Shown: positions 32,889-50,834, counted from the stretch's first letter. The stretch is 64,000 nt of DNA from Candidatus Woesebacteria bacterium RIFCSPHIGHO2_01_FULL_39_32 (GCA_001792345.1 MGGJ01000001.1:48486-112485); one strand, 5' to 3'. Notes: generated by a model not told the origin, from the sequence alone. Program-made: numbers and translations.

Positions 32889-33618
32889 TGTGAAAGGTGT
32901 TGTACTTGCTGGAGGACTCGGAACCCGTCTTTATCCTCTTACTTACACCACGAATAAGCATTTACTTCCTATTTATGATCAGCCAATGATTTTTTACCCC
33001 ATTCGGACATTAGTAAAAGCAGGTATAAAGAGTGTCATGGTGGTGGTTAGTGGTCCCCATTCTGGTCAGTTCATACAAATTTTAAAAAATGGAAAAGAGT
33101 TGGGTTTAGAACATTTAGAATATGGTTATCAAGAAAATCCTATGGGCGGCTTGGCAGATGCTTTAAAAGTAGCGGAAGATTTCGCAGATGATGAATCGGT
33201 GACACTGATTCTCGGGGACAATACGACAGACGCTGATGTTTCAAAGGAAATTGCCTCATTTGAAAAAGGTTCAATAATGTTTCTCAAAAAAGTTTCCGAT
33301 CCGGAGCGTTTCGGAGTTCCGATATTCGACAGGAAAGAAAAGCAGAAGATTGTGGGCATCGTCGAAAAACCAAAAAAACCACCATCACAATATGTATCTA
33401 CCGGTTTATATGTTTTTGATAGTAGATGTTTTAACATCGCCAAAGGATTAAAACCATCAAAAAGAGGACAACTTGAAATTGTAGATGTCCAGGATTATTA
33501 CATTAAAGAAGGGACGATGAAGTGGTATGAATTAAAGGGCTATTGGCACGACGTTGGAACTTTTGATAGTCTTTTAGAAGCAAACAAATATTGGGCAAGT
33601 AAGTCGTTAAACCATTAA
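32889..33618 (+). CDS. rmlA: Glucose-1-phosphate thymidylyltransferase-like sugar nucleotidyltransferase (short form)
   Basis: KGVVLAGGLGTRLYPLT...LLPIYDQPMIFYPI; probable GTG start at 32889 (track start 32824 adds an implausible hydrophobic leader). Confidence 0.65.
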
Positions 33619-34625
33619 TGAAACTTCTAGTTACAGGTGGTGCAGGATTCATTGGATCGAATTTTATTCGTTACTGGTTGAAAAAATATCCTAACGATAA
33701 AATTGTTAATCTCGACAAGCTAACATACGCCGGACATCTGTCTTCAACCAAAGACTTTTCGGATAATCCCAAGTGTACATTTATAAAGGGCGATATTTGT
33801 AGCAGTGAACTGGTCCATGAAATCATGAAAGCTATCGATATCGTTGTCCACTTTGCAGCGGAGTCACACGTCGACCGTTCAATAGTAGGACCTGCAACCT
33901 TTGTAAAAACTAATATTTTAGGCACACAAGTCTTATTGGACGCAGCGGTTAAGAATAAAGTAAAAAGATTTCATCATGTCTCAACAGATGAAGTATTTGG
34001 GTCACTTCCATTAAATAGTAAAGCAAAGTTTTCTGAAAAGACAATTTATGATCCAAAGAGTCCGTATTCTGCTTCAAAAGCAGCATCCGATCATCTGGTT
34101 CGTGCTTATCACAATACTTATGGTTTGGATATTACGATAACTAACACCTCAAATAACTACGGTCCTTATCAAGACCCTGAAAAATTTCTGCCCCGAATGA
34201 TTACTAATTTAATTGACGATAAAGAAATTCCTATTTACGGTGACGGTAAATACGTTAGGGATTGGATTTATGTTGAAGATCACTGTAGAGCAATTGACAT
34301 TGTATTACAGAAAGCTAAGGTGGGTGAAACATATCTTGTGGGTGGGTTGACTAAGGATGTTAATAATTTGCAAATCGCTAAAAAGCTTCTGAAGATTTTT
34401 CGATATGATGAATCATATTTGAAGTTTGTAAAAGATAGGCCAGGACATGATAGAAGGTATGCTGTTAATTGGAGTAAAATAAAGCTAGAATTGGGGTGGA
34501 AACCAAAATACGATTTTGATACGTGGCTTGAAAGAACAGTAGAATGGTATAAATATAATGAGTGGTGGTGGAGACCGATTAAAAAGGAAGCGGAGAAATT
34601 ATATGCAAAAACTGGACAAAAATAA
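33618..34625 (+). CDS. rmlB: dTDP-glucose 4,6-dehydratase
   Basis: VTGGAGFIGSNF; YSASKAASD (YxxxK); 335 aa. Confidence 0.8.
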   Translation: MKLLVTGGAGFIGSNFIRYWLKKYPNDKIVNLDKLTYAGHLSSTKDFSDNPKCTFIKGDICSSELVHEIMKAIDIVVHFAAESHVDRSIVGPATFVKTNILGTQVLLDAAVKNKVKRFHHVSTDEVFGSLPLNSKAKFSEKTIYDPKSPYSASKAASDHLVRAYHNTYGLDITITNTSNNYGPYQDPEKFLPRMITNLIDDKEIPIYGDGKYVRDWIYVEDHCRAIDIVLQKAKVGETYLVGGLTKDVNNLQIAKKLLKIFRYDESYLKFVKDRPGHDRRYAVNWSKIKLELGWKPKYDFDTWLERTVEWYKYNEWWWRPIKKEAEKLYAKTGQK

Positions 34626-34627
34626 CT

Positions 34628-35170
34628 ATGGACCCTGATAAAATAACAGTTGAATGGTTACAAAATCAAGAAACAGTAGGTAAGTTTCAGGTACAAAATA
34701 TTTATAAACCTCCGACTATTGAAGGTGTAATTTTAAAAGAGTTAAATCCGTTAGTTGATGGTAGGGGTGATGTGATCGAACTTTGGAGTAAGCCTTGGGT
34801 TGAAAAGGAGGGTTTTGTAGTTCCAACACATTGTTATCAAAGCGCAACGGACTTCGGTGTTGTCAAATGTTGGCATCTTCATAAAATTCACACAGATCAA
34901 TTTACTGTTACTCGGGGTAAGTTACAAGTTTCATTAGTCGATATAAGAAAGGATTCAAAGACTTTTGGGCATGTAAATTTAGTTTTTTTGGGAGTTCAGC
35001 GACCCAGGCTTCTTAAAATTCCTCCAGGAATTATGCATGGATGGAAAGCTCTGACTAAACCCGAGGTTATTGTTGTTAATTTTCAGTCGCATGTTTATGA
35101 TGCAATGGATGAATATAAATTTCCCTGGAATTGTGTATTAGAAAATATTTGGGAACCGAAAAATGGATAA
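34628..35170 (+). CDS. rmlC: dTDP-4-dehydrorhamnose 3,5-epimerase (cupin)
   Basis: 180 aa; RmlC-like cupin; positioned between rmlB and rmlD. Confidence 0.6.
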   Translation: MDPDKITVEWLQNQETVGKFQVQNIYKPPTIEGVILKELNPLVDGRGDVIELWSKPWVEKEGFVVPTHCYQSATDFGVVKCWHLHKIHTDQFTVTRGKLQVSLVDIRKDSKTFGHVNLVFLGVQRPRLLKIPPGIMHGWKALTKPEVIVVNFQSHVYDAMDEYKFPWNCVLENIWEPKNG

Positions 35171-35173
35171 ACT

Positions 35174-36088
35174 ATGAAAGGATTAATTTTAGTTACCGGT
35201 TCTGAGGGCTTGGTTGGCTCCAGGTTTGTGGAGCTGTCCGAACTAAAAGATTCACTTCATTTGCCAAAAGAAGTTGAACTCGACATAACCGATAAGTCAG
35301 AACTGAAAGCAGTCTTTAGAAGTTTTGATTTCCGTGCTGTTGTTCATTTTGCGGCTTTTACTGATGTTGCTAAGGCCGAAGAGGAAAGAGGGGATAAATA
35401 TGGAGATTGCTGGCAGGTCAATGTGGAAGGGACAAGAAATCTAGTAGAAGCTGTTAAACCTCATAAGGCTAGAATTCATTTTATCCAGATTTCGACAGAC
35501 ATGGTCTTTTCGGGTAGTACCTGGGATCCTGGGGCGTATAAAGAGGATCATTCTCCTGAGAAAGATTCGAACAAAGTTTCATGGTATGGTTTTACAAAAG
35601 CAGAAGCTGAGCGGATAGTTCAAAGCACTTTAGGTGCATCCGCAACAGTTTTAAGAATTATTTACCCCGTACGTGCTAAGTTTGATAAAAAATTGGACTA
35701 TATTAGAAAGCCTTTACAACTATACGACGAAGGTAAACTATATCCAATGTTTACAGATCAACAAATATCAATAAGTTTTGTTGACGAAGTCAGTTTAGCG
35801 CTAGATAAAATTATAATAGAAGGATATAGGGGAATCTTCCATGCTGCTTCCCGCGATACTACAACTCCACATAAACTCCTAAGCTTTTGTTTAGAAAAGA
35901 CCCGCGGTATTAAAAATGCTGTAAAGCCAACCACCTTAAAGGAGTTTTTACAAAAAACCGAAGCATCAGCCCAACGTTACCCTAAATTTGGTGGTTTGAG
36001 AGTGGAAGAGACGGAGCAAAAACTAGGCATGAGGTTTAGTACTTGGAAACAGATAGTTGAAAAATTAGTAAATCAAGGTTTGGGGTGA
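35174..36088 (+). CDS. rmlD: dTDP-4-dehydrorhamnose reductase
   Basis: ILVTGSEGLVGS Rossmann motif; 304 aa; operon context. Confidence 0.65.
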   Translation: MKGLILVTGSEGLVGSRFVELSELKDSLHLPKEVELDITDKSELKAVFRSFDFRAVVHFAAFTDVAKAEEERGDKYGDCWQVNVEGTRNLVEAVKPHKARIHFIQISTDMVFSGSTWDPGAYKEDHSPEKDSNKVSWYGFTKAEAERIVQSTLGASATVLRIIYPVRAKFDKKLDYIRKPLQLYDEGKLYPMFTDQQISISFVDEVSLALDKIIIEGYRGIFHAASRDTTTPHKLLSFCLEKTRGIKNAVKPTTLKEFLQKTEASAQRYPKFGGLRVEETEQKLGMRFSTWKQIVEKLVNQGLG

Positions 36089-36128: not shown

Positions 36129-36157
36129 TTGAAATACTAAATATCCTCTAGTATAAT
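36129..36157 (+). promoter_or_regulatory. Sigma-70-like promoter TTGAAA-17-TATAAT
   Basis: ttgaaaTACTAAATATCCTCTAGtataat read directly; ~65 nt before the megaprotein ATG. Confidence 0.5.
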
Positions 36158-36224: not shown

Positions 36225-39200
36225 ATGCCCAAACTAGATGTAGTTATACCTGCTCATAACGAATCCGATAATATTATTGAATTATTGGTAAGGCTCGAAA
36301 GAGCGCTATTTAATGCTGGAATAAAATACAACATTTTTGTTGTTGATAATCGCTCTTCTGACGGAACTGATGAAAGGGTAAAAGAATACATAAATAGTTC
36401 GAATTCTTCGTCGATAAAACTCTTGTACAAAAAAGATAAACAGGGAAAGGCATATGCAATTCTGGAAGGTACACATTACGGTAAAGCGCCCTATATAGCC
36501 ATGATTGATGGAGATCTTCAGTATCCCCCGGAAGTGTTACCTGAGATGTTTAAACTTGTTAAAAAATTTGGGGTCGTTGTGGCAAACAGAAAAAAGAATG
36601 GTGCTGGATTTTTAAGAAAAATAGGCACCAGGCTTAACAGATACATCTTCGAGAAAAAACTTTTGGGTTTGAATTGTGATACGCAATCAGGCCTGAAGGT
36701 TTTTAAGCGAGAGATTATACGTTATTTACATGAGGCTGATGTAAAACCATGGTCTATAGATATGCCTCTCTTGGTTACCGCTAGGCGCCTTGGCTACAAA
36801 ATTGCAACCGTCGATATCGAATTTGCCAAGAGAAAATCAGGTTTATCAAAGGTTAGTTTTCTAAAAACAGGTTTTCAGATAGCGACAACTGCAATCTCAC
36901 TAAAACTTTCAGAAAAAAAACCATTTAAAGTATTACCCAAAAACGAACGTTCACCAATCGGAGCTGGGGTAGTTTACAAAGGTCGAAGGTTTACTACCCA
37001 CACAAACCTTCCATTCTCGGAGACTGCTTTGAAGACCCTTAATATTCGTCAGAAATTATTACTGGGTGCAGTAGTTTTACTACTAACTGCTGGTCTTTTT
37101 ATAAACGCGAAGGGTACCGTGATTATACTCATAGCACTTCTATCCGCACTGTATTTTTTGGATTTTATTTTTACAACTTTTATTCTTCTTAGGAGTTTGT
37201 CTAAGAATATCGAAATTAAATTTTCGAAAAAGTCATTGGGACAGTTAAATGACAAAAGTCTTCCCAAATACAGCATTTTGTGTCCGCTTTACAAAGAGGC
37301 TAACGTATTACCTGACTTTGTAAAAGCAATAAATAATTTAGACTGGCCAAAGGATAAGCTTGACGTTATTTTGCTCCTTGAAGAAAACGATAAAGAAACA
37401 CAAAAGGCTGCGGAAAACCTTTCCGATCAGAGTCATTTTAGAGTACTCGTGGTACCCCATTCTCTTCCTAAGACTAAACCTAAAGCTTGCAATTACGGTT
37501 TAGCGTTTGCAAAGGGAGAATATGTAGTTGTCTATGATGCAGAGGATAGACCCGATCCGATGCAACTGAAAAAAGCATACATTGGTTTTAAAAGATCCGC
37601 CTCAAAAGTCGTTTGTCTACAATCAAAACTGAATTACTACAATCCGGATCAAAATTTTTTAACAAAGCTTTTTACAGCAGAATATTCATTATGGTTTGAT
37701 TTGATCTTACCTGGACTTCAGTCGGTGAAAACCATAATCCCGCTTGGTGGGACAAGCAATCATTTTAAACTTTTCGTTTTAAGAGATTTAGGAGGTTGGG
37801 ACGCTTTTAATGTTACAGAGGATTGTGAATTGGGGACGCGCCTTTTTAGAAAGGGTTTTACAACGGCAATAATTGATTCTACGACTTATGAAGAAGCAAA
37901 TAGCAAGGTCAAAAGTTGGTTAAAACAACGTTCACGTTGGATTAAAGGGTATCTGCAAACTTATTTCGTTCACACAAGACATCCTCTTAGTTTTGTTGTT
38001 GATCATGGGGTCCAGGCATTTATATTCCAACTAGTTATTGGAATGCGGATGATCTTCATCATGATAAACCCCATTCTTTGGCTAGTTACTATTTCTTATT
38101 TTATGTTTAGGCCGACTCTTGGGTTAACAATTGAATCTTTATATCCAACACCAATTTTTTATATGGCGGTTTTTCCTATGATCTTTGGGAATTTTCTTTA
38201 CCTTTATAACTACATGATAGCCTTAGCAAAAAGAGAAAAGTGGTACCTAATAAAATACGTTTATTTAGTTCCTTTTTACTGGGTAATGGTGAGTTTTGCG
38301 TCATTTATCGCACTCTATCAGTTGATTGTTAAACCTCACTATTGGGAAAAGACAGAACATGGGTTTCATCTTGCACCAAAGAAAAAAGAATCTAAGTCAC
38401 CAGGGCTTGCTATTTCCTTATCTATTCCTTCCCTGCAAGAATCTTTTTTTGATTCGGTAAGAAATTTACTGAAGAAGGAAAACTTTGCTTTGGGAGCAAT
38501 TTTACTAATTATTTCTTCCGGTTTAGTAAATTTTATTGACTTTCTTTATAACGCGTATCTGGGAAGAAAATTAGAAATTGTGGAGTTTGGAAACGTAGCA
38601 CTCCTTGGAAATTTCATAACAATTGCTGGAATTTTAACAAGCGCCCTAATGAGAGTTACAACCCATAAGGCAAGTTACTTCTTTGGGAAACATAACGCTC
38701 CGGCCAAGGAATTTTGGAGAAGAATTAAGAAGTGGGTTTGGTTCGGATCTTTGGCAGCAACGTTTGTCTGGGTTATTTCTATCCCGTCATTAGGAAATTA
38801 TTTTAATATCGGTGGCTTAATGCAGTTTGTTCTCTTCACTCCGTTTTGGACAGTTGGTTTTCTGGCCGGACTAAATATAGGCTTTTTAGGAGGAAACTTT
38901 AAATTTAGTGTGATTGCATTAATTTCATTTGTTGAAGTACTTACAAAATTACTTATTGCTGTAGTTACAGTAGAAATGGGATATCCCTCACTCGTTTATA
39001 TTTCTTTACCAATCTCAGTAGTTATTGCGTTTTTCATTAGTTACATCGTCATTTCCAGGATGCAGGATGCGAAGGATTACAAAGATAAAGAAAGCGACCT
39101 AACTTTCCCGCGCGGATTTTTCCTTGCATCCTTACTAACCAATGTGTCGATAGTTGCCTTTTTATCAATCGATGTTGTACTTGCAAAACATTATCTTTCT

Positions 39201-40931
39201 CCCGTCGAGGCCGGGAATTATGCGCTTTTATCTTTGTCAGGGAAAATCATTTATTTTTTGGGCGGTCTTTTTATTCAGTTTGTAAATCCTCTTATTAGTA
39301 GACAGGAAGGTCAAGGAAGAGTATCCCGTAGAACTTTTTACCTTTTATTTATCAGTTCTTCGACTGTTAGCTTAATGGGTTATGTGGGAATTGGACTATT
39401 CGGTAAGGTAACGATGCCTCTACTTTTTGGAGATAAAGCTAATGCAATTCTTCCTATTCTGCCGTTATATGGACTTGGTATTGCCGCATATTCTATAGCT
39501 AGCTTTTTTACCATCTACCATCAAGTCAGAAAACACTATATTTTCTCGGTACTTGCAATTCTAGTTTCGGCTGCACAGATATTTTATATCGCTCTATTCC
39601 ATTCTTCTACCGAAATGATTGCTATGGTTACAACATTGACGGGAATAGGATTTCTAATCTACTCAATTATTCTTCACCTGTCATATAAGCAGTTAACTAG
39701 CATCTCGAATAACATTTTGGACTTCTTTGATCTCTTCGGTCCATCAGCTCCTATATCTTCGGATAAAATTAAAATCCTCATTTTCAACTGGAGGGACGTA
39801 AAACATGTTTGGGCCGGAGGGTCAGAAATTTATATTCACGAGATTGCAAAGCGTTGGGTCAGAAAAGGTCATCAGGTAACTCTATTTTGTGGAAATGACG
39901 GTAAAAACAAAAGAGAAGAAAAAGTTGCGGGAGTTAAAGTAATTAGAAGGGGTGGATTTTATACAGTCTATTTATGGGCTTTTTTATACTATATTTTTCG
40001 GTTTAGAAAAAAGTTTGGTGTAGTAATCGATTGTGAGAATGGGATACCCTTTTTCACTCCTTTATATGTGAAGGAACCGCATGTTTTATTAATGCATCAT
40101 GTACACAAAGATATTATTTTGAAGGAAATGAAACTTCCAAAATTGCTTCTTCCGGTCGCTTTTGTGACAAAGAAGCTTGAGGAAGTACTGATGCCAGTAT
40201 TGTATAGAAAGTCAAGGATTATAGCTGTTTCTAAATCTACGAAAGATGACTTAGAAAAAATTGGTTTGGGAACAAAGGAAAAAATATCCGTCGTAAACCC
40301 TGGTGTCGAATTGGAGAAATTCAAAGTTGGGAAGAAAACTGCCTACCCCTCAATCCTTTATTTGGGAAGATTAAAGCAATACAAGTCTATCGACACTATT
40401 ATTAAGGCAATGCCTACGGTTTTAGCCAAACATCCAAGTGCAATTCTACATATTGCAGGTTTTGGCGAAGCGTATAGATACTTAGAAAAGTTGGCACGAA
40501 AACTATTACCCGATAAAAGTTTCATGTTTTGGGGAAAAGTAAGCGATGGAGTTAGGGCAAAACTTATGAGTTCTTCCTGGGTATTTGTTTACCCTTCGAC
40601 AATGGAAGGTTGGGGAATTTCTGTAATTGAAGCAAATGCTTGCGGGACTCCTGTTGTGGCCTCAAATGTTCCGGGATTGCGTGACTCTGTAAAAAATCCA
40701 TCAAGCGGGTTTCTAGTTGCTCCGAAAAATAGCGACGAATTTGCAGAAAAAATAAATCTGATTCTCTCGGATATAAGGTTAAGGACTACTTTATCAAAAG
40801 AAAGTCTTAAATGGGCAACTGGATTCACTTGGGACAAAAGCGCCGAGGAATTTATGAAAGTTTTAATTGATACCATAGCTATTGGAGAGGGTTATTCGTT
40901 GATGCCGAATGCCAGTTTATCAAAACAGTGA
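36225..40931 (+). CDS. 1568-aa multidomain glycan-synthesis protein: GT2 (DPM1-like) - TM - GT2 (processive, QxxRW) - MOP/Wzx-like flippase - GT4
   Basis: aa 1-230: VVIPAHNESDNI, DGD (DxD); aa 340-600: DAEDRPD, TED, QRSRW (nt ~37926) flanked by TM helices; aa ~730-1130: >10 TM helices with AGNYALLSLSGK (Wzx G.Y motif); aa ~1150-1568: GT4 with EGWGISVIEANACGTPVVAS; continuous ORF, no internal stop. Confidence 0.7.
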   Translation: MPKLDVVIPAHNESDNIIELLVRLERALFNAGIKYNIFVVDNRSSDGTDERVKEYINSSNSSSIKLLYKKDKQGKAYAILEGTHYGKAPYIAMIDGDLQYPPEVLPEMFKLVKKFGVVVANRKKNGAGFLRKIGTRLNRYIFEKKLLGLNCDTQSGLKVFKREIIRYLHEADVKPWSIDMPLLVTARRLGYKIATVDIEFAKRKSGLSKVSFLKTGFQIATTAISLKLSEKKPFKVLPKNERSPIGAGVVYKGRRFTTHTNLPFSETALKTLNIRQKLLLGAVVLLLTAGLFINAKGTVIILIALLSALYFLDFIFTTFILLRSLSKNIEIKFSKKSLGQLNDKSLPKYSILCPLYKEANVLPDFVKAINNLDWPKDKLDVILLLEENDKETQKAAENLSDQSHFRVLVVPHSLPKTKPKACNYGLAFAKGEYVVVYDAEDRPDPMQLKKAYIGFKRSASKVVCLQSKLNYYNPDQNFLTKLFTAEYSLWFDLILPGLQSVKTIIPLGGTSNHFKLFVLRDLGGWDAFNVTEDCELGTRLFRKGFTTAIIDSTTYEEANSKVKSWLKQRSRWIKGYLQTYFVHTRHPLSFVVDHGVQAFIFQLVIGMRMIFIMINPILWLVTISYFMFRPTLGLTIESLYPTPIFYMAVFPMIFGNFLYLYNYMIALAKREKWYLIKYVYLVPFYWVMVSFASFIALYQLIVKPHYWEKTEHGFHLAPKKKESKSPGLAISLSIPSLQESFFDSVRNLLKKENFALGAILLIISSGLVNFIDFLYNAYLGRKLEIVEFGNVALLGNFITIAGILTSALMRVTTHKASYFFGKHNAPAKEFWRRIKKWVWFGSLAATFVWVISIPSLGNYFNIGGLMQFVLFTPFWTVGFLAGLNIGFLGGNFKFSVIALISFVEVLTKLLIAVVTVEMGYPSLVYISLPISVVIAFFISYIVISRMQDAKDYKDKESDLTFPRGFFLASLLTNVSIVAFLSIDVVLAKHYLSPVEAGNYALLSLSGKIIYFLGGLFIQFVNPLISRQEGQGRVSRRTFYLLFISSSTVSLMGYVGIGLFGKVTMPLLFGDKANAILPILPLYGLGIAAYSIASFFTIYHQVRKHYIFSVLAILVSAAQIFYIALFHSSTEMIAMVTTLTGIGFLIYSIILHLSYKQLTSISNNILDFFDLFGPSAPISSDKIKILIFNWRDVKHVWAGGSEIYIHEIAKRWVRKGHQVTLFCGNDGKNKREEKVAGVKVIRRGGFYTVYLWAFLYYIFRFRKKFGVVIDCENGIPFFTPLYVKEPHVLLMHHVHKDIILKEMKLPKLLLPVAFVTKKLEEVLMPVLYRKSRIIAVSKSTKDDLEKIGLGTKEKISVVNPGVELEKFKVGKKTAYPSILYLGRLKQYKSIDTIIKAMPTVLAKHPSAILHIAGFGEAYRYLEKLARKLLPDKSFMFWGKVSDGVRAKLMSSSWVFVYPSTMEGWGISVIEANACGTPVVASNVPGLRDSVKNPSSGFLVAPKNSDEFAEKINLILSDIRLRTTLSKESLKWATGFTWDKSAEEFMKVLIDTIAIGEGYSLMPNASLSKQ

Positions 40932-42048: not shown

Positions 42049-42052
42049 TATT

Positions 42053-43749: not shown

Positions 43750-43751
43750 AC

Positions 43752-45107
43752 ATGATAAAACCTTTGTCGGTAAAAATTTTAATGTACTTACTTAATCAAG
43801 TATCCAAGGTGAAACTATTGAATAAAATTTCGCCCGAGCAATCGCATGACTTGGTGCTTTGTTATCATGATGTAGGGAATTCAAATTGGGAATTTATAGT
43901 GACAAAAAATAATTTTAAAAAGCAAATTAACTTTTTAGTTAAAAAGTTTAATGTTGTTGGTTTGAGAGAAATATTAAAGTCTAATAACTTGGGTAGAAAA
44001 CCTAGAGTTGCAATAACTTTTGACGATGGTTTATCGGGGGTTTATAAAAATGCGTTTCCGATTTTAGAAAAACTTGGAGTTCCTGCTACCGTATTTTTAA
44101 TTAGAGGAAATCTTGGGACTACTGGTTATATGCATATTACCCAAATAAAAAAACTTATTAAAAGCGGGTGGGAGATAGGTTATCATACTGCCTCTCATAA
44201 AGATCTCACTAAATTGACGGGGAATGCTTTAATAAAAGAAATCGGCGGTAAAAATATTTTAGAGAAAGAACTTGGAGTACAAATATCTTATTTCGCATAT
44301 CCTCACGGTAAATATAAAAATGAGACTGTTTCGATCGTTTCTAAATCTAACTTTTTGTTTGCTTTTACGACTAGTGGCAGGAAGGTTAGCCACCTAAAGA
44401 AATATAAATTTATACTAGGAAGAATAACAATTAGCAACTTTTTTAGTCAAGATAACTTTGAATCTTTGTTTACCACAACAGGTTTTATAATCAATCTAAT
44501 TTTTACTTATTTTTGGAGTTTGAAAGATAATTTCAACGATTTTACTCGTTATAATTTGAGAAATATTAAGAGAGATTTAATCTTAATTTATAAAGCTCCC
44601 ACTGGGTACTTTTTTAGCTTCTTGGAATCGACAACGGAGAAAGTTGGAATAGAAAACTATGATCCGAGATCAACACTAGTTGGAAGGAAAATTGTTCGTG
44701 ATATTAAAAAACATATACCAAATCTTAAGGTACATTTTCATGGATCTTCCGCTTTACAAATTCAAGGACAAAACGACATAGATTTACTGCTTGAAGGCAA
44801 GCTTGAGGAATTCGACAAGTTTTTACCAGAATTAACACAGCTATTTGGCAAACCAATAAAACGGGGAAAGAAATATATTGAATGGCATTTTAGAAGAGAG
44901 AAATATAAAGTTGAATTATTACTTATTGATCCGAAAAGTCGAATGTTCAAGGAGTTAATTACAGTCTATCTAGTTCTCAGATCTGATAAGAAATTATTGA
45001 AAGAATACGAACAGATAAAACTTAATTCGAACGGTTTGTCTCCAAGGGAATATCAAAAAAATAGGCTTGAATTTTATAACAAGTTATTGTCCGTAAAACT
45101 TTCCTAG
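43752..45107 (+). CDS. Fusion: CE4 polysaccharide deacetylase (NodB homology) plus C-terminal GrpB (UPF0157 nucleotidyltransferase-fold) domain
   Basis: VAITFDDGLSG and YHTASH (NodB motifs 1 and 3); C-terminal HFHGSSALQIQGQNDIDLLL matches the GrpB HxGSTAV..IDI pattern. Confidence 0.55.
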   Translation: MIKPLSVKILMYLLNQVSKVKLLNKISPEQSHDLVLCYHDVGNSNWEFIVTKNNFKKQINFLVKKFNVVGLREILKSNNLGRKPRVAITFDDGLSGVYKNAFPILEKLGVPATVFLIRGNLGTTGYMHITQIKKLIKSGWEIGYHTASHKDLTKLTGNALIKEIGGKNILEKELGVQISYFAYPHGKYKNETVSIVSKSNFLFAFTTSGRKVSHLKKYKFILGRITISNFFSQDNFESLFTTTGFIINLIFTYFWSLKDNFNDFTRYNLRNIKRDLILIYKAPTGYFFSFLESTTEKVGIENYDPRSTLVGRKIVRDIKKHIPNLKVHFHGSSALQIQGQNDIDLLLEGKLEEFDKFLPELTQLFGKPIKRGKKYIEWHFRREKYKVELLLIDPKSRMFKELITVYLVLRSDKKLLKEYEQIKLNSNGLSPREYQKNRLEFYNKLLSVKLS

Positions 45108-45115
45108 GTAATAAA

Positions 45116-46645
45116 ATGAAAAATTTTTTATTAATATTAACAGTTTTTATTTCTGCAATATTCCTTGTTGCTGCTATTCGTGGAATATCTGGGAGTCCGT
45201 CGGTGGATGATCTTAATAGTATCACTTGGAAAGAAAACGGTCCTTTTGAGCTTTCACCGGAGCGAGGAAGATTTGCGTTAACATATTCTTTAGTAGAAGA
45301 AAGATCTTTGAATTTCTCGACAGCTCTTGCCCGATTTGTAACACCTGATTTAGGGTATTGGGACGGTAAGTACGTTTCTCTTTTTGCGCCCGCAGTATCA
45401 TTTTTGGTAATTCCTGGTTATTTACTAGGAAAGTTTATTGGTATATCTCAAGTTGGATCTTTTTTCATAATTTCTTTGTTTGCCATTGCTAACTTTATTT
45501 TAATTGTAAAAATATCTGAAACATTAGGTGCAAATAACAGGGCTTCGGTGTTGGCTGGGCTAATTTTTCTTTTTGCAACACCATCCTTTGCTTACGCAAT
45601 AAATCTTTATCAACATCATATTTCTACTTTTCTTATACTTCTTTGTAGCTTTCTTTTAATCAAGAAAGACAAAAGTTGGTTACAACTTCTTATTGTATGG
45701 TTTCTAATTACTTTCTCCTTGGTTGTAGACTATCCTAACTTTTTCTTAATGTTTCCCTTAGGTTTAGCGGCTTTAATTAAAGTCTTAAAATTCAGACAAA
45801 CCACTAAGATCTATAAAATTTCCTTTAAATTTTCTTCTTTATTAAGCCTATCGAGTGCTTTCCTGCCATTAATTCTATTTGGCATATTTAACTTTTACTC
45901 ATACGGGAGCCCGTACAGATTGTCGGGAACTATAGCAAGCGTTTCTTCGATAGATTCAGGGGGAGAACCTATTTTTCCACTAGATATAAAAGAGACATTC
46001 GGTAACGACTTTCAAGGTAAAGGGGAATCAGCCTTGGGTTTTTTTAGGACAAGAAATATTGTGAACGGTCTATATGTACATTTATTAAGTCCGGATAGAG
46101 GAGTCGCTATCTTTTCCCCCGTTATTTTGTTTGGGATACTTGGAATATATTTTCTACATAAAAATAAATTTACTGTTTTATTTCTTAGTATTGTAGTTAT
46201 GAATATAATTCTCTATTCAATGTGGGGTGATCCATGGGGTGGATGGGCTTTTGGCTCTAGATATCTAATTCCAGGTTATGCGATTATGTCGATATTTATT
46301 TCAATTGCTCTTACTAAATTATCTAAGAACAAGACCCTTTTAATTTTTTTCAGTTTACTGCTTACCTACTCTATAGCAGTTAATACTCTGGGGGCGATCA
46401 CAACAAGCACCAACCCTCCGAAAATTCAAGCAATTCCGCTTCAAGATGTTACTGGAAAAATTGAAAGATACTCTTACGACAGAAATTGGGAGTATCTCAA
46501 TACATTTGGCTCTAAATCCTATGTCTTTCGAGAGTATGTTTCTTCCTATATTAATGCAAGGTCATATTATTTTGTATTAACAACACTTATCTCGGGGTTA
46601 TCGTTGGGGATAATACCTTTACTGTATTTGAGTAAAACAAAATAG
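45116..46645 (+). CDS. Polytopic membrane protein, putative glycan polymerase/GT-C-like
   Basis: 509 aa, ≥12 TM helices, glycan-locus context; family not assignable. Confidence 0.3.
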   Translation: MKNFLLILTVFISAIFLVAAIRGISGSPSVDDLNSITWKENGPFELSPERGRFALTYSLVEERSLNFSTALARFVTPDLGYWDGKYVSLFAPAVSFLVIPGYLLGKFIGISQVGSFFIISLFAIANFILIVKISETLGANNRASVLAGLIFLFATPSFAYAINLYQHHISTFLILLCSFLLIKKDKSWLQLLIVWFLITFSLVVDYPNFFLMFPLGLAALIKVLKFRQTTKIYKISFKFSSLLSLSSAFLPLILFGIFNFYSYGSPYRLSGTIASVSSIDSGGEPIFPLDIKETFGNDFQGKGESALGFFRTRNIVNGLYVHLLSPDRGVAIFSPVILFGILGIYFLHKNKFTVLFLSIVVMNIILYSMWGDPWGGWAFGSRYLIPGYAIMSIFISIALTKLSKNKTLLIFFSLLLTYSIAVNTLGAITTSTNPPKIQAIPLQDVTGKIERYSYDRNWEYLNTFGSKSYVFREYVSSYINARSYYFVLTTLISGLSLGIIPLLYLSKTK

Positions 46646-46647
46646 TT

Positions 46648-48252
46648 ATGGAAATTTCATTTTCAAAAAACAAAATAAGTAAACTTGCTTTACAATTAGA
46701 AAAAAAAGCCACCATTTTTATCTTTTGTTTTCTATCGTCCATTTCGATTATCTTCTTTTATGCTTACTATATAAACGGTTTGGGTTTAGCTTATAACGAT
46801 GCAAGATCCCACCTCGATATTGGAAGACGTGTTGTAGAGGGTTTAAAACCGGGCTTAGCTCAATTGGGTTCTGTATGGCTACCATTAAACCATGCTCTGA
46901 TGATTCCCACTATTTGGAATAACTGGATGTGGCATTCAGGCCTTGCCGGTGCGGTACAATCTATGATTTCCTTTGTAATAACAGGAGTAGTTGTATATAA
47001 ATTCTTAGAGAAACTTAATGTAGGTTTACTGGCTAGAGTTTTTGGAGTCTTGGTATTTATATTAAATTTAAACGTTTTATATCTTCAGTCGACTGCAATG
47101 ACTGAGCTACTTCTTTTATCAACAATGACTGCTGGGTGTTATTATTTGGTTCTCTGGGCAAAAAACGATGATCTGCTTTCTTTGATAAAATCTGCCCTTT
47201 TTATCATGCTTTCTACATTGGTACGCTACGATGGTTGGTTTTTACTTTTTGTTACAACGGCAATTGTAGCCTTTAATGTATTCAGAAAAAAAGGATACAA
47301 ACAGATGGAGGGTAAAGTGATTTTGTTTGTAACCCTAGGAGTTTTTGGAGTCGCTCTATGGTTTCTGTGGAATCTATTGATTTTCAACGACCCTTTATAT
47401 TTTGCACTAGGACCTTTTTCTGCCCACGCCCAGCAGTCGCAATTAAGTGAGGCAGGCGATTTACCGACAAAATTCAACTTACTACTATCCTTGAAGATTT
47501 ATGTTTATGCTTTACTTTACAATTCATATACTATTCCAGCCATACTTGGTGTAAGTGGGATGGTTTTATTCCTTTTAGATAAAAAAATTAAAAGGGAGAT
47601 TAGAATAGCCAGTCTTTCCTTGATAGCCCCTTTTGGATTTAATGTTCTTGCACTTTTTCTAGGTTTTTCTGTTCTCTTTGTGCAAGGTATATCAGGGAAT
47701 TCTTTGTTCAACGTTCGCTACGGTGTAATGCTCGCTCCATCAATTGCGATTTTTATCGGATATCTGGTAGATAAAGTAAAAAGCCTTAGAATTCCCCTTA
47801 TCGGATTAGCTTCCTTTATAATATTTTTTGCATTTGTGAATCAAGATGCGGTAACAATTGACGATGCCAGGGTTGGTTCAAGCCAAAAAAACGTTAGTGA
47901 AGTTTCGGGTTGGCTTAGTCAAAATACAAGCGATAAAGATGGTTTCGTTTTGATTTCCGCCGCAAGTCACGACGCTATAATTTTTTCTTCTGGTCTTCCA
48001 ATGAAAAAATTTATTCACGAAGGAACGGGTTTGTATTGGGAGAGCGCAACAACAGCTCCAGACAAGTGGGCTCGCTGGATAGTTTTACGTACATACGACG
48101 ACAATGATTTAACGTTTAGACTTATTAAAGATGCCCCCGGTTTCAAACGATTTGAATTAGTTGATAGCTATCCGTTTGCTGATATTTATCAATTGAAAGA
48201 AGAATACTTAGGCAATTTGAATACAAAACCTGTATTTTCTAATCAAAAGTAA
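46648..48252 (+). CDS. Polytopic membrane protein, putative GT-C (ArnT/PMT superfamily-like) glycosyltransferase
   Basis: 534 aa; first loop DARSHLDIGRRVV resembles the GT-C DExRY-type loop; many TM helices. Confidence 0.35.
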   Translation: MEISFSKNKISKLALQLEKKATIFIFCFLSSISIIFFYAYYINGLGLAYNDARSHLDIGRRVVEGLKPGLAQLGSVWLPLNHALMIPTIWNNWMWHSGLAGAVQSMISFVITGVVVYKFLEKLNVGLLARVFGVLVFILNLNVLYLQSTAMTELLLLSTMTAGCYYLVLWAKNDDLLSLIKSALFIMLSTLVRYDGWFLLFVTTAIVAFNVFRKKGYKQMEGKVILFVTLGVFGVALWFLWNLLIFNDPLYFALGPFSAHAQQSQLSEAGDLPTKFNLLLSLKIYVYALLYNSYTIPAILGVSGMVLFLLDKKIKREIRIASLSLIAPFGFNVLALFLGFSVLFVQGISGNSLFNVRYGVMLAPSIAIFIGYLVDKVKSLRIPLIGLASFIIFFAFVNQDAVTIDDARVGSSQKNVSEVSGWLSQNTSDKDGFVLISAASHDAIIFSSGLPMKKFIHEGTGLYWESATTAPDKWARWIVLRTYDDNDLTFRLIKDAPGFKRFELVDSYPFADIYQLKEEYLGNLNTKPVFSNQK

Positions 48253-48258
48253 TCTACT

Positions 48259-49560
48259 ATGTTACCAACACAAAGTTTGGGTAATCGTTTAGATATTAGT
48301 CGTAGTCGCTTGATGTTTGCCGAGTTTTTTATATCAATTCTTATTATCGTGGTGTGTATTTATATAATTTTGAATATATTCACTCGAGGAAAAACGATCG
48401 CAGAAGAAAAATTCACTTTGTGGAAAGTACAGGCCATCGATACGGTCAAATACTCTCGTGACCTTGCTCGGGAGAAGCAAAGCGACACTTCATTTGATGG
48501 AGTTATTGAAAGCCAAGTGCACTCGATTGCTGAGCTGGGAGCTACGCATGTTTCCATTGGCACACCATATGATGAGGAGTTTATACCCTACTTGCGGCGC
48601 TGGGTTTATGCTTCAAGGAAAAATAACCTTAAGGTGTGGTTTAGAGGAAACTTATCAGGCTGGGAGGGATGGTTTGATTACGGTCCGATTACAAGGCAAG
48701 AGCATAAAGATAAGATTAAGAACTTTATTCTTAGAAACCCAGATTTATTTGAAGACGGAGATATATTCACGACATGTACTGAGTGCGAAAACGGTGTCGT
48801 AGGTGATCCAAGACAAACAAAAGATGTTTACGGATTTCGTCGATTTCTTATAGAAGAATATATGCTTGCAAAAGAAAGCTTTAGGATTATTGATAAAGAA
48901 GTTTCCGCAAACTATTTTTCCATGAATGCTGATGTTGCAAGGATTGTAATGGATAAAGAAACAACAAAAAAACTTGATGGTATTGTCGTAATAGATCATT
49001 ATGTCGCAAGTCCTGAAAAATTAGATAATGACATCCGAGAAATTTCTCAAAAAAGCGGAGGTAAAGTAGTTTTAGGTGAGTTTGGGGCGCCTATTCCTGA
49101 CATTCATGGAAAAATGTCAGAGGATGAACAAGTAGAATGGATTTCTGATGTAATGCTACGAATCTCCGAAAATAAAAATTTATTAGGAGTAAATTATTGG
49201 ACAAGCTTTGGTGCTTCTACTCAAATTTGGGACGAGAATGGTAACGTGCGCAAATTCGGGGACGTCTTAAAAAAGTATTACCAACCCAAGATTTTTAAAG
49301 GTATTATTAAAAACGAGATAGGCTATCCGCTAAAGGGAGTTGCAATATCAACGGACGAGCGAAGCACGCATACAAATGAGGAAGGCACTTTTTCCTTACC
49401 TTATATTGAAGATGACCTTCTGGTAAAAATATGGGTTAGTGGATATAAGGAAGATAAATACCTTATAGTGGATAAACAAGATGTTGTAATTTTATTGAAA
49501 AAAGAAAAAGAAGATGCTCTTTTTAAGATCATAAAGAATATCTACAAAGCCTTTAATTAA
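48259..49560 (+). CDS. Membrane-anchored putative glycoside hydrolase (clan GH-A/GH5-like TIM barrel) with C-terminal carboxypeptidase-regulatory-like beta-sandwich
   Basis: TM; VVLGEFGAP resembles the GH5 nucleophile xEFG motif; C-terminal IKNEIGYPLKGVAIST...EGTFSL prealbumin-like domain. Confidence 0.35.
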   Translation: MLPTQSLGNRLDISRSRLMFAEFFISILIIVVCIYIILNIFTRGKTIAEEKFTLWKVQAIDTVKYSRDLAREKQSDTSFDGVIESQVHSIAELGATHVSIGTPYDEEFIPYLRRWVYASRKNNLKVWFRGNLSGWEGWFDYGPITRQEHKDKIKNFILRNPDLFEDGDIFTTCTECENGVVGDPRQTKDVYGFRRFLIEEYMLAKESFRIIDKEVSANYFSMNADVARIVMDKETTKKLDGIVVIDHYVASPEKLDNDIREISQKSGGKVVLGEFGAPIPDIHGKMSEDEQVEWISDVMLRISENKNLLGVNYWTSFGASTQIWDENGNVRKFGDVLKKYYQPKIFKGIIKNEIGYPLKGVAISTDERSTHTNEEGTFSLPYIEDDLLVKIWVSGYKEDKYLIVDKQDVVILLKKEKEDALFKIIKNIYKAFN

Positions 49561-49566
49561 TAAAAT

Positions 49567-49595
49567 TTGCATCCCTAATTATGTTTTGTTATAAT
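49567..49595 (+). promoter_or_regulatory. Sigma-70-like promoter TTGCAT-17-TATAAT (near-leaderless)
   Basis: ttgcatCCCTAATTATGTTTTGTtataat; ATG at 49612. Confidence 0.45.
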
Positions 49596-49611
49596 CCTAT
49601 ATCTAACTACT

Positions 49612-50253
49612 ATGAACAGACAATTTGTTTTGTCGCAGATACTTATAATTCCGTTATTACTCTTTCTTTATATTTCTTTATTTGCCCCAAATACTGTTTA
49701 CGCAACGGAATTACCGTCTTTTCCTTTCTGTTCTAATCCGCAGGGAGAAATAAAAGTGTCTTATGATTCAGGGACGCACGGCGTCGTGGGAAGTCAAACA
49801 CAATATCAAGGAAAAGACACAGTCTACTTTGTGGGCGAAAATAACTATCTTCAGTGTCTTTGTACAGATCAAGGTGAGGGAATTCAAACTGGTTGGTTGA
49901 AGTTAGGAAATTTATCAAATAATGAAATTGATGAACTTCGTAATGAAGGGTGGCAATACGTTCCCGACGGAACTCTTTGGGGACTTGCGGGCGGTGATTA
50001 TCTTGCGAAAAATAGCCCATATTCCTGCAATGGCGAGGGCGGGAACACTACACCCACACTAACCCCCACTCCCACAAGTTCAACGATCTCTTCAACTTCA
50101 GGCGATCCGGGTATCGGTGGGAGTGTTATTGCAGCCTCCGCGCCGTTACTTGCCGCTACAGGCACTTCTACACTTTTTTATTCGCTTTTAGCATTTGGTT
50201 TAGCCTCTTTTGGTTTGGGGCTTGTTCTTCGTAAGAAAGATAAAATAAACTAA
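49612..50253 (+). CDS. Sortase substrate: secreted Cys-containing protein with C-terminal LAATG sorting signal
   Basis: Signal peptide; C-terminus PLLAATG (nt 50149-50163) followed by a hydrophobic helix and an RKKDK tail. Confidence 0.6.
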   Translation: MNRQFVLSQILIIPLLLFLYISLFAPNTVYATELPSFPFCSNPQGEIKVSYDSGTHGVVGSQTQYQGKDTVYFVGENNYLQCLCTDQGEGIQTGWLKLGNLSNNEIDELRNEGWQYVPDGTLWGLAGGDYLAKNSPYSCNGEGGNTTPTLTPTPTSSTISSTSGDPGIGGSVIAASAPLLAATGTSTLFYSLLAFGLASFGLGLVLRKKDKIN

Positions 50254-50264
50254 TAACTTTTCTC

Positions 50265-50834
50265 ATGAGAAGAGCATTAGGCAATATATTAGTAATTCTA
50301 GGTATAATTTCACTCGGACTTAGCCTGTTTTTTTATTGGCAAAGGGTAACTCCTCGGAGGCTTAGTTTTAATATCGACAATTTGGGTGAAAGTGAAGTAG
50401 TCGGAGAGAGTAGTAAGCCGACGGCACTACTAATCTCAGATTTGGGAATTTCTCTTCCTATTTTTCCCGCTAAAATTCAAAATGGCAAATGGGAAGCGAC
50501 AAGTAAGGGTGTTTCTTACTTAAGCACGTCTTCTATTCCGGGAGAGCTCGGAAATAGTGTCATTTACGGCCACAACTGGAAGAGTCTTTTAGGAAACCTA
50601 ACTAAAGCGAAGCCCGGCCAGGAGATTATGATTTATTATTCAAACGGAACCAAAAAAACTTTTAAAATTACCCATACGCAGGTTGTAACACCTAATCAGA
50701 CAAAGATATTAGATCGAACAGATGACAGAAGAATTACTCTCTACACCTGCACTGGGTTTTTAGATACGAAGAGGTTTGTTGTTACGGCTATCTACGAAGA
50801 AGATCGGGGCGCGACTTCTTTGTCCTCTCAATAG
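50265..50834 (+). CDS. Sortase-family transpeptidase
   Basis: TM anchor; VIYGHNW (His); TLYTCTGF (TLxTC); immediately downstream of the LAATG substrate. Confidence 0.65.
   Translation: MRRALGNILVILGIISLGLSLFFYWQRVTPRRLSFNIDNLGESEVVGESSKPTALLISDLGISLPIFPAKIQNGKWEATSKGVSYLSTSSIPGELGNSVIYGHNWKSLLGNLTKAKPGQEIMIYYSNGTKKTFKITHTQVVTPNQTKILDRTDDRRITLYTCTGFLDTKRFVVTAIYEEDRGATSLSSQ

What the first reader, a model, noticed from the sequence alone, without database searches (positions are those of the whole stretch)
32889..50834. Rhamnose-based surface-glycan island followed by sortase and substrate
Co-directional genes read rmlA-B-C-D, the megaprotein, GT4, a PIG-L deacetylase, GT2, a CE4 deacetylase-GrpB fusion, two polytopic membrane proteins that may be GT-C-like (45116 has no diagnostic motif; 46648 only a weak DExRY-like loop), and a membrane-anchored GH-A-like hydrolase. 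These are followed by a LAATG protein and its sortase. Further along are a DPM-synthase-GtrA fusion (57030), another DPM-like GT2 (61961) and a clearer ArnT-like GT-C (62692). Pairing DPM1-type polyprenyl-P-sugar synthases with GT-C transferases implies lipid-linked monosaccharide donors used outside the membrane, i.e. glycosylation of surface proteins or cell-wall polymers. The repeat and LAATG proteins are plausible targets.
Basis: inference. Interest (0 to 1): 0.6.

Follow-up and report, generated by a model that had tools for sequence, protein, structure and literature searches.

The report
Conserved Microgenomates surface-glycan assembly locus
This 18-kb block of a Woesebacteria (candidate phyla radiation) genome looks like a surface-sugar assembly line with its own wall-anchored protein and sortase; the same gene framework recurs across related uncultured species, and most of its core proteins have never been characterised.

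Summary
From 32890 to 50834, fourteen co-directional, tightly packed genes encode RmlA-D, a 1568-aa enzyme, GT4, PIG-L, GT2, CE4, two polytopic membrane proteins, a membrane-anchored extracytoplasmic protein, an LAATG protein and a sortase.

- The "megaprotein" is not a target. It fuses a polyprenyl-phosphate-sugar synthase-type GT2, a cellulose-synthase-like GT2, a probable Wzx-like flippase domain and a GT4.
- Rhamnose is strain-specific: at least two rml genes occur in only 7 of 82 related loci.
- The sortase and its LAxTG substrate belong to a conserved frame: MEGA, variable GTs and deacetylases, GT-C 509, GT-C 534, H433, S213, sortase. Relatives of the anchor gene occur in 263 GTDB species genomes. 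The frame itself was seen in the best 80 loci fetched, mostly Microgenomates.

GT-C 534 is 61-71% identical across these lineages. Its distant relatives are fused to synthase-like GT2, to H433-like domains or to GH5 domains.

Best reading: a lipid-linked glycan is built, flipped and transferred outside the membrane. The acceptor, S213 or a wall polymer, is unresolved. I rate it a new variant of a known kind.

The parts
32890..33618 (+). RmlA-like glucose-1-phosphate thymidylyltransferase (GTG start)
   Evidence: Pfam NTP_transferase E 3.6e-54. Best NCBIfam hit is rmlA at 223 bits, below the equivalog cut-off of 361. Start fixed. A promoter-like site lies at 32851-32880.
33618..34625 (+). RmlB dTDP-glucose 4,6-dehydratase
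   Evidence: TIGR01181 at 467 bits, above the cut-off of 365.
34628..35170 (+). RmlC-like 3,5-epimerase (divergent)
   Evidence: Pfam dTDP_sugar_isom E 2e-18. TIGR01221 scores 47 bits, below the cut-off of 156.
35174..36088 (+). RmlD-like 4-ketoreductase (divergent)
   Evidence: RmlD_sub_bind E 1.6e-35. TIGR01214 scores 108 bits, below the cut-off of 224.
36129..36157 (+). Best sigma-70-like promoter match in the block (TTGAAA-17-TATAAT), in the only sizeable gap
   Evidence: 11 of 12 matches. The total count of such sites is not above shuffles, so this is suggestive only.
36225..36914 (+). MEGA module 1: polyprenyl-phosphate-sugar synthase-type GT2 (aa 1-230), followed by 2 TM helices (aa 277-316)
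   Evidence: Best PDB matches are ArnC 9hwj (E 2.6e-16), Dol-P-Man synthase 5mlz (3.8e-15) and GtrB 5ekp (2e-11). NCBIfam hits ArnC, PgfS and AglJ. TM helices.
37257..38324 (+). MEGA module 2: membrane-embedded processive-synthase-like GT2 (aa 345-700)
   Evidence: Best PDB match is BcsA cellulose synthase, E 3e-18. PgaC/IcaA E 3e-27. The motifs DAED, TED (NVTEDCELG) and QRSRW are readable in the translation.
38412..39734 (+). MEGA module 3: polytopic Wzx/MOP-flippase-like domain (aa 730-1170)
   Evidence: About 10-12 hydrophobic segments. The window copy itself matches Polysacc_synt only at E 6.6. Orthologous segments match Polysacc_synt in 9/36 (best 2.8e-12), Polysacc_synt_3 in 3/36 (9e-12) and MatE in 1/36.
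39792..40865 (+). MEGA module 4: GT4 (GT-B) glycosyltransferase (aa 1190-1547)
   Evidence: Glycos_transf_1 E 8e-42 and Glyco_transf_4 E 9e-17.
40909..42048 (+). GT4 glycosyltransferase (variable module; travels with PIG-L)
   Evidence: Pfam. Weak MshA/BshA-like hits. The GT4+PIG-L pair recurs in many loci.
41978..42844 (+). PIG-L/LmbE-type de-N-acetylase; no TM helix, so presumed cytoplasmic
   Evidence: PF02585 E 2e-12. No TM helix.
42832..43749 (+). GT2 glycosyltransferase (variable module)
   Evidence: PF00535 E 2.4e-21.
43752..45107 (+). CE4 polysaccharide deacetylase with a C-terminal GrpB-like region (below threshold)
   Evidence: Polysacc_deac_1 E 6e-25. GrpB E 7e-5, below the cut-off. 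Nearest NCBIfam family is IcaB.
45116..46645 (+). M509: GT-C-fold glycosyltransferase, no Pfam family; the variable partner
46648..48252 (+). M534: GT-C-fold glycosyltransferase with a C-terminal extracytoplasmic domain; the most conserved gene of the locus
48259..49560 (+). H433: N-terminal TM anchor, a ~300-aa extracytoplasmic catalytic-like domain (invariant E175, E177, N178, E274) and a C-terminal CarboxypepD_reg beta-sandwich
   Evidence: It occurs fused to M534-like GT-C in four representative proteins (E 1e-109 to 1e-128). One of these fusions passes the Glyco_hydro_cc cut-off (26.2 bits against 21).
49566..49595 (+). Promoter-like site (TTTGCA-18-TATAAT with TG) in the 51-bp gap before the LAATG gene
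   Evidence: suggestive only.
49612..50253 (+). S213: secreted sortase substrate. Signal peptide, conserved ~110-aa four-cysteine domain, Thr/Ser/Pro-rich linker, then LAATG (nt 50149-50163), a hydrophobic helix and RKKDK
   Evidence: The family consensus is VLGLAxTG[N/D]. There is no Pfam or PDB relative. It is the only such sorting signal found in the window.
50265..50834 (+). Sortase paired with S213
   Evidence: PF04203 E 3.9e-22. H103, C162 (TLYTC) and R170 are invariant in 32 orthologues.
57030..58184 (+). Satellite: Dol-P-Man-synthase-like GT2 with GtrA-type TM domain (separate transcription unit)
   Evidence: 5mlz E 3e-37. Pfam GT2 plus GtrA_DPMS_TM.
59281..60477 (-).
   Evidence: PMT_2 E 0.0019. 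NF046093 E 6.7e-11. About 10 TM helices.
61961..62710 (+). Satellite: ArnC/GtrB-like GT2, overlapping the next gene by 19 nt
   Evidence: 9hwj E 3.5e-16.
62692..64000 (+). Satellite: PMT_2-type GT-C, cut by the window end
   Evidence: PF13231 E 3.7e-13, 50 bits against a cut-off of 26.

Best explanation
This is the local copy of a conserved envelope-glycoconjugate assembly locus of Microgenomates-type CPR bacteria.

Shown:
- A fixed frame of six genes (MEGA, GT-C M509, GT-C M534, H433, S213, sortase) brackets a strain-variable cassette of glycosyltransferases, deacetylases and sugar-nucleotide genes. Here the cassette is dTDP-6-deoxyhexose (most likely L-rhamnose) genes, GT4+PIG-L, GT2 and CE4.

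Inferred mechanism:
1. On the cytoplasmic face, MEGA starts and extends a polyprenyl-phosphate-linked glycan. It uses its GtrB/DPMS-like GT2 module, its cellulose-synthase-like GT2 module and its GT4 module.
2. The cassette enzymes add strain-specific sugars (rhamnose, GlcNAc) and remove N-acetyl groups.
3. The Wzx-like module of MEGA flips the lipid-linked product.
4. Outside the membrane the two GT-C enzymes use the lipid-linked donors. The very conserved M534 does the common transfer step onto a conserved acceptor. The variable M509 does a glycan-type-specific step.
5. H433, physically coupled to M534, trims or transglycosylates the product.
6. The dedicated sortase cleaves S213 at LAxT|G and anchors it to the cell wall.

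I think the most likely acceptor is S213's linker or stalk. That would give a wall-anchored glycoprotein, as with Pgf/Cnm in Streptococcus mutans or GspA in Actinomyces oris. This last step is the weakest link.
For: - Domain identities.
- GT-C folds for both unknown membrane proteins. Distant M534 relatives match PMT_2 in 36/60.
- Wzx-like module: orthologous segments match Polysacc_synt or Polysacc_synt_3 at 1e-12.
- Topology: N termini are basic and the conserved loops lie after TM1. H433 has a single N-terminal anchor; PIG-L and CE4 have none.
- Conserved frame with variable middle in the fetched loci. Minimal loci L032, L035 and L062 contain only the six frame genes.
- GC drops to 0.33 over the variable genes and M509, as in O-antigen or capsule loci.
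- Fusion proteins link a synthase-like GT2, an M534-like GT-C and an H433-like or GH5 domain in other organisms, including Thermosporothrix.
- S213 orthologues nearly all carry LAxTG plus a TM helix and a basic tail, usually after a Ser/Thr/Gly/Asn-rich linker or an fn3/PKD stalk.
- The sortase catalytic triad is invariant.
- A second sortase paralogue elsewhere in the window fits a dedicated sortase-substrate pair.
- Experimental precedents: GT-A plus GT-C glycosylation of sortase-anchored adhesins (10.1101/2024.05.05.592596) and a glycosylated sortase-anchored protein, GspA (PMC6381275).
Against: - Nothing shows what the acceptor is.
- Some S213 orthologues have almost no Ser/Thr in the linker (L017, L018), and no conserved sequon was found.
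- Some loci (L010, L014, L015) keep MEGA, M509, M534 and H433 but show no adjacent S213 or sortase. The glycan machinery can therefore exist without them nearby.
- The window's own Wzx-like module matches the Pfam model only at E 6.6.
- No initiating phosphoglycosyl transferase, Wzy, chain-length regulator or LCP ligase is in the window. They could lie elsewhere in the genome.
- MEGA module 2 has all the synthase motifs, so the polymer might instead be exported by the synthase itself.
- The donor, acceptor and sugar specificities of the GT-C enzymes cannot be read from the fold.
Confidence: 0.6

Rival explanations
1. It makes a cell-wall polysaccharide rather than a glycoprotein. The lipid-linked glycan is transferred to peptidoglycan or another wall polymer, like the rhamnose-containing wall polysaccharides of streptococci and lactococci. 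There, GtrB-like enzymes plus GT-C enzymes add side chains outside the membrane. S213 and its sortase are co-located only because they share an envelope function, for example as a glycan-binding or organising protein.
For: - rmlABCD plus GT2/GT4 content.
- The frame persists without adjacent S213 or sortase in L010, L014 and L015.
- The aromatic-rich four-Cys domain of S213 sits on a stalk (fn3/PKD in some), like a binding module rather than a mere acceptor.
- H433 could be a transglycosylase.
Against: - No LCP ligase, TagO/GacO-type initiator or RgpCD-type ABC exporter lies in or near the cluster.
- rml genes are absent from most related loci.
- S213 and the sortase follow H433 in about 80% of loci with enough flank.
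Confidence: 0.25
2. It is a synthase-dependent exopolysaccharide system. MEGA module 2 (BcsA/PgaC-like) polymerises and exports a beta-glycan. H433 is the usual synthase-associated hydrolase, as PslG, BcsZ or PgaB are. The GT-C enzymes only decorate the polymer outside, using polyprenyl-P-sugars made by MEGA module 1.
For: - D, DxD, TED and QxxRW motifs, and BcsA as best PDB match.
- The CE4 enzyme is closest to IcaB/PgaB.
- H433 has a PslG-like layout: TM anchor, catalytic domain, beta-sandwich.
- Synthase-like GT2 is fused to M534-like GT-C in other taxa.
Against: - Few TM helices flank module 2.
- A Wzx-like module and a GT4 are fused in the same protein, which a simple synthase system does not need.
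- The CE4 and PIG-L enzymes lack export signals.
- M534 is far more conserved than a mere decorating enzyme is expected to be.
Confidence: 0.12
3. The neighbours are a chance juxtaposition of unrelated envelope genes in a compact genome.
For: CPR genomes are gene-dense and co-directional. The count of promoter-like sites does not exceed shuffles.
Against: The same order and strand recur in the loci fetched from many related species genomes, and independent gene fusions link three of the components.
Confidence: 0.02

Closest known systems
Streptococcus mutans Pgf system (PgfS GT-A, PgfM1/PgfM2 GT-C, PgfE) and streptococcal GtrB/PgtC2
   Same: A polyprenyl-P-sugar-synthase-type GT2 plus two GT-C membrane enzymes act outside the membrane. 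Their targets include sortase-anchored adhesins and Ser/Thr-rich disordered linkers (10.1101/2024.05.05.592596). MEGA module 1 and 57030 both hit the PgfS model at about 1e-17.
   Different: - All hits are far below the PgfS equivalog cut-off.
- This locus adds a synthase-like GT2, a Wzx-like module, a GT4, a variable GT cassette and a hydrolase-like partner. That implies an oligo- or polysaccharide rather than a single sugar.
- Substrate and sortase are encoded in the locus.
- M509 and M534 have no Pfam family.
Actinomyces oris GspA-LcpA-SrtA
   Same: A small glycosylated cell-wall protein is anchored by a sortase, and its gene is linked to its glycosylation enzyme (PMC6381275).
   Different: There the glycan is attached by an LCP phosphotransferase. 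No LCP is present here; GT-C enzymes take that position.
Haloarchaeal Agl N-glycosylation (AglJ, cytoplasmic GTs, AglR flippase, AglB and AglS GT-C enzymes) (from my own knowledge)
   Different: - No WWDYG-type oligosaccharyltransferase motif is seen in M534.
- All family scores are far below cut-off.
- This is a bacterial sortase context.
O-antigen, capsule and S-layer-glycan loci with conserved flanks and variable middles, and exosortase/PEP-CTERM-EPS loci (from my own knowledge)
   Same: A variable glycosyltransferase and sugar-nucleotide cassette with lower GC sits between conserved machinery genes. A protein-sorting enzyme and its substrate are embedded in a polysaccharide locus. XrtG- and XrtY-associated GT models are hit weakly.
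   Different: The sorting enzyme is a classical sortase with an LAxTG signal, not an exosortase. No Wzy, Wzz, WaaL or ABC exporter was recognised.

Membership tests
dTDP-L-rhamnose pathway (RmlABCD) | Four enzymes, each matching its equivalog model above cut-off | tested here: inconclusive
   RmlB passes (467 bits against 365). RmlA (223 against 361), RmlC (47 against 156) and RmlD (108 against 224) each have the right family as best hit but fall below cut-off. A dTDP-6-deoxyhexose is certain; L-rhamnose is probable.
GT-C glycosyltransferase superfamily (ArnT/PMT/STT3/ALG type) | GT-C membrane fold | tested here: met
GT-C glycosyltransferase superfamily (ArnT/PMT/STT3/ALG type) | Conserved acidic residue(s) in the first extracytoplasmic loop after TM1 | tested here: met
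   M534 has invariant D51 and E64 and near-invariant D57 in YNDARSHLDIGRRVVEG, just after TM1. M509 has invariant E45, E61 and D78 and near-invariant E49 in loop 1. Their position in the active site was not checked in 3D.
GT-C glycosyltransferase superfamily (ArnT/PMT/STT3/ALG type) | Sequence membership of a curated GT-C family (e.g. Pfam PMT_2) | tested here: not met
   Neither protein has a Pfam hit or a PDB profile hit. There is only a sub-threshold NF047440 hit. Relatives of M534 at 30-45% identity do hit PMT_2 in 36/60.
GT-C glycosyltransferase superfamily (ArnT/PMT/STT3/ALG type) | Use of a polyprenyl-phosphate-linked donor | not testable with these tools
   Inferred only from co-encoded ArnC/DPMS/GtrB-like GT2 modules.
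Sortase / cell-wall sorting signal system | Sortase domain with catalytic His-Cys-Arg | tested here: met
   PF04203 E 3.9e-22. H103, C162 (TLYTC) and R170 are invariant in 32 orthologues.
Sortase / cell-wall sorting signal system | Substrate with a signal peptide and a C-terminal pentapeptide, hydrophobic helix and basic tail | tested here: met
   LAATG, then 22 hydrophobic residues, then RKKDK. LAxTG is conserved in the family.
Class E sortase (LAxTG-specific, actinobacterial) | Match to the class E model above cut-off | tested here: not met
   Class E scores 27.6 bits against a cut-off of 160. Class C is the best class-specific model (45.7 bits), and all class-specific models are below cut-off. 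The generic sortase model TIGR01076 passes (43 bits against 39.35). The motif resembles that of class E, but the enzyme is not a member by sequence.
Wzx/Wzy-dependent glycan assembly | Wzx (MOP) flippase | tested here: inconclusive
   The window copy scores E 6.6. Orthologous segments of the same MEGA module reach 2.8e-12 in 9/36.
Wzx/Wzy-dependent glycan assembly | Initiating phosphoglycosyl transferase, Wzy polymerase and chain-length regulator | tested here: not met
   None was recognised among the window ORFs scanned. The rest of the genome was not available.
Synthase-dependent beta-glycan systems (BcsA/PgaC/NodC type) | GT2 with D, DxD, TED and QxxRW motifs | tested here: met
   DAED, NVTEDCELG and QRSRW are in MEGA aa 430-575. 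BcsA E 3e-18.
Streptococcal Rgp/Gac-type rhamnopolysaccharide loci | RgpCD-type ABC exporter, TagO/GacO-type initiator and LCP ligase, together with rml genes | tested here: not met
   None is in the cluster or window. The only ABC system is MacB/FtsX-type at 53447-56371.
Clan GH-A glycoside hydrolase (for H433) | Significant match to a GH-A family, and two catalytic Glu about 90-110 residues apart | tested here: inconclusive
   The window protein has no family hit and the family profile has no PDB hit. Two of 51 orthologues hit Glyco_hydro_cc at 0.015. One fused orthologue passes that model's cut-off (26.2 bits against 21). Invariant E177 and E274 lie 97 residues apart. hhalign against the GH5 domains fused to M534 relatives is negative.

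The most novel reading that the evidence does not exclude
Probability: 0.05. Interest if true: 0.9.

Novelty: new variant of a known kind. Interest (0 to 1): 0.55.

Why it matters
Microgenomates are abundant and uncultured, and they are thought to live attached to other cells. Their surface chemistry is essentially unknown. This locus is a candidate for their main surface glycoconjugate.

- It has a strain-variable cassette that could explain surface diversity and host or phage specificity.
- Its GT-C enzyme M534 is about as conserved as the essential TrmD, making it a good marker and functional target.
- The locus gives four uncharacterised protein families (M509, M534, H433, S213) a testable role.
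- It shows a recurrent coupling, by neighbourhood and by fusion, of synthase-like GT2, GT-C and hydrolase-like domains.
- My literature searches found no description of this coupling or of the locus.

Tried and rejected
- Profile searches of PDB sequences with M509, M534, H433, the MEGA membrane module and the S213 domain found nothing significant.
- hhalign of the H433 family against the GH5 domains fused to M534 relatives was negative (probability 0.8%). The GH-A call stays indirect.
- Tandem-repeat search found no repeats in the megaprotein. Together with its enzyme domains, this rejects the 'repeat/target protein' reading.
- The promoter/terminator scan is no better than shuffles overall. 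It cannot define transcription units, although the three best + strand sites fall at the three gaps.
- I looked for a link between M509 subtype (30-38% or 42-54% identity) and cassette content (PIG-L, GT4, CE4, number of GT2). No clear association appeared.
- A deacetylase is present in only 37 of 56 complete loci. That weakens any model needing a free amine.
- Literature searches for CPR or Microgenomates with sortase, GT-C or glycosylation, and for LA_3751, found no description of the locus.
- Both structure-prediction jobs went to the two GT-C candidates, so H433 and S213 could not be modelled.

Full report
**Source and observation.** The window comes from Candidatus Woesebacteria bacterium RIFCSPHIGHO2_01_FULL_39_32 (Microgenomates, CPR); the 46648 product is 100% identical to its protein A2715_04525. 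From 32890 to 50834 there are fourteen + strand genes with gaps of -71 to +136 bp, ending against convergent trmD.
- RmlA-D. Only RmlB passes its equivalog cut-off; the other three have the right best hit below cut-off.
- GT4, PIG-L, GT2 and CE4. The GrpB part of the CE4 protein is below threshold.
- A sortase.
- A 213-aa protein with a signal peptide, LAATG, a hydrophobic helix and RKKDK.

RmlA starts at GTG 32890, not 32889.

- M534: ALG12 20.9, AglB 20.7, Pmt4 20.5, ArnT 19.8.

Both have invariant acidic residues in the first loop after TM1. Relatives of M534 at 30-45% identity do match Pfam PMT_2 in 36 of 60 cases.

**The megaprotein.** It has no repeats and is not a plausible substrate. 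It has four modules:
1. A GT2 whose best solved relatives are ArnC, Dol-P-Man synthase and GtrB, followed by two TM helices.
2. A GT2 closest to BcsA and PgaC, with DxD, TED and QRSRW motifs.
3. A polytopic domain. The window copy itself matches Polysacc_synt only at E 6.6, but orthologous segments match the Wzx/MOP families Polysacc_synt and Polysacc_synt_3 at about 1e-12.
4. A GT4.

**Comparative genomics.** Relatives of M534 occur in 263 GTDB species genomes. The best 80 loci were fetched: Woese-, Ames-, Levy-, Gottesman-, Curtiss-, Shapiro- and Daviesbacteria, Dojkabacteria and WWE3. BLASTP of the window proteins against their ORFs shows one frame, all on one strand: MEGA, then a variable cassette, then M509, M534, H433, S213 and sortase. 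Counting only loci with enough flank:

| Gene | Present |
|---|---|
| M509 | 75/75 |
| H433 | 67/76 |
| S213 | 54/68 |
| sortase | 51/65 |
| MEGA | 37/43 |

- The cassette holds one to six GT2 genes, GT4+PIG-L pairs, CE4 and assorted sugar-nucleotide genes. At least two rml genes occur in only 7 of 82 loci, often after the sortase.
- Minimal loci (L032, L035, L062) have only the six frame genes.
- GC falls to 0.33 over the variable genes and M509.
- M534 is 61-71% identical everywhere, comparable to TrmD in the same loci (53-75%).
- M509 is bimodal, at 30-38% or 42-54% identity.

**H433.** It has an N-terminal anchor, a ~300-aa domain with invariant E175, E177, N178 and E274, and a CarboxypepD_reg beta-sandwich. 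Direct evidence for a GH-A fold is weak. Fusions provide indirect evidence:
- Four representative proteins fuse an M534-like GT-C to an H433-like domain, at E 1e-109 to 1e-128. One of them passes the Glyco_hydro_cc cut-off.
- Other M534 relatives carry a true GH5 or GH113 domain at the same position.
- Others are fused to cellulose-synthase-like GT2, for example in Thermosporothrix hazakensis.

These fusions tie MEGA module 2, M534 and H433 into one functional unit.

**S213 and the sortase.**
- Orthologues share a ~110-aa domain with four invariant Cys and several invariant aromatic residues. It has no Pfam or PDB relative.
- A Ser/Thr/Gly/Asn-rich linker or an fn3/PKD stalk follows the domain, and then VLGLAxTG[N/D], a TM helix and a basic tail.
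- The sortase keeps His, Cys and Arg.
- A second sortase paralogue (33% identity) lies at 26322-27011, behind three repeat-rich secreted proteins. The 50265 enzyme is therefore probably dedicated to S213.

**Mechanism.** Identities, folds, topology, synteny and fusions are shown. The following steps are inferred:
1. A polyprenyl-phosphate-linked glycan is assembled by MEGA and the cassette enzymes.
2. It is flipped by the Wzx-like module.
3. The GT-C pair uses it outside the membrane.
4. H433 processes the product.
5. S213 is wall-anchored by its sortase.

Whether S213 is the acceptor is unresolved. Published precedents exist: Pfm-type GT-A plus GT-C glycosylation of sortase-anchored adhesins in S. 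mutans (10.1101/2024.05.05.592596) and the glycosylated, sortase-anchored GspA of A. oris (PMC6381275). Against it, some orthologues lack Ser/Thr-rich linkers, and some loci lack adjacent S213 and sortase.

**Downstream genes.** The DPMS-GtrA fusion (57030), the GT2/GT-C pair (61961 and 62692) and a further weak GT-C (59281, - strand) are real. They lie beyond convergent trmD, a MacAB-like exporter and oppositely oriented genes, so they are separate transcription units. They do recur downstream of the frame in several relatives: L005, L021, L024, L031, L033 and L049.

**Novelty.** Méheust et al. noted that a sortase is nearly ubiquitous in Microgenomates and that many Microgenomates-enriched families are hypothetical membrane proteins (PMC6744442). 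My searches found no description of this locus. It is a new variant of known extracytoplasmic glycosylation and glycan-assembly systems, built largely from uncharacterised families.

Noticed in passing
window 21609-27011: Three secreted, repeat-rich proteins (416, 769 and 394 aa) carry recurring 'SGNGSDSEN...TGDN.A.DNT.G' units and have no Pfam match. A second sortase paralogue follows them at 26322-27011 (TLYTC motif, 33% identical to the 50265 sortase). Their C termini have hydrophobic helices with basic tails but no clear LPXTG or LAxTG motif.
   Followed up: partly
window 46648-48252 and relatives P0241-P0390: The M534 family is large: 2153 clusters at E<=1e-3 and 632 at E<=1e-30. Its Microgenomates orthologues are unusually conserved. 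Outside them the GT-C domain is fused to GT2, GH5, GH113, LysM, GtrA or CarboxypepD_reg domains. P0242 (1065 aa) matches M534 over its C-terminal half (residues 533-1056) and has no Pfam hit; its N-terminal half was not examined.
   Followed up: partly
window 42001-46000: GC content drops to 0.326-0.329, against 0.36-0.40 elsewhere. The dip covers GT2, CE4 and M509, that is, the variable part of the locus.
   Followed up: partly
window 50788-50834: The 3' ends of the sortase gene and of convergent trmD overlap by 47 bp. trmD follows the sortase in the same orientation in many related loci.
   Followed up: partly
window 59281-60477 (-): A further polytopic protein has a weak PMT_2 hit and a hit to the AZOBR_p60025 'cell surface glycopolymer formation' family. 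It is conserved next to the 61961/62692 pair in L031 and L033.
   Followed up: partly
window 58256-59203: A 315-aa protein with no family match and no TM helix is conserved directly after the DPMS-GtrA gene in L005, L033 and L049.
   Followed up: no
window 5007-10293: A storage-glucan-type block: a GT4/GT5 glycogen-synthase-like gene, GH57, GH15 and a ROK kinase.
   Followed up: no
window 136-1146 (-), 18283-19290, 28329-29246 (-): Extra sugar-nucleotide genes (two NAD-dependent epimerase/dehydratases and a nucleotidyltransferase) lie outside the cluster.
   Followed up: no
window 53447-56371: A MacAB-like HlyD/ABC/FtsX-MacB exporter lies between the glycan block and the downstream DPMS and GT-C genes.
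   Followed up: no
window 14530-16619: An FtsX gene with an extracellular domain is followed by an M23 peptidase, like an FtsEX-EnvC cell-division hydrolase module.
   Followed up: no
window 27056-28036: A CAP (cysteine-rich secretory protein) family protein lies directly after the second sortase.
   Followed up: no
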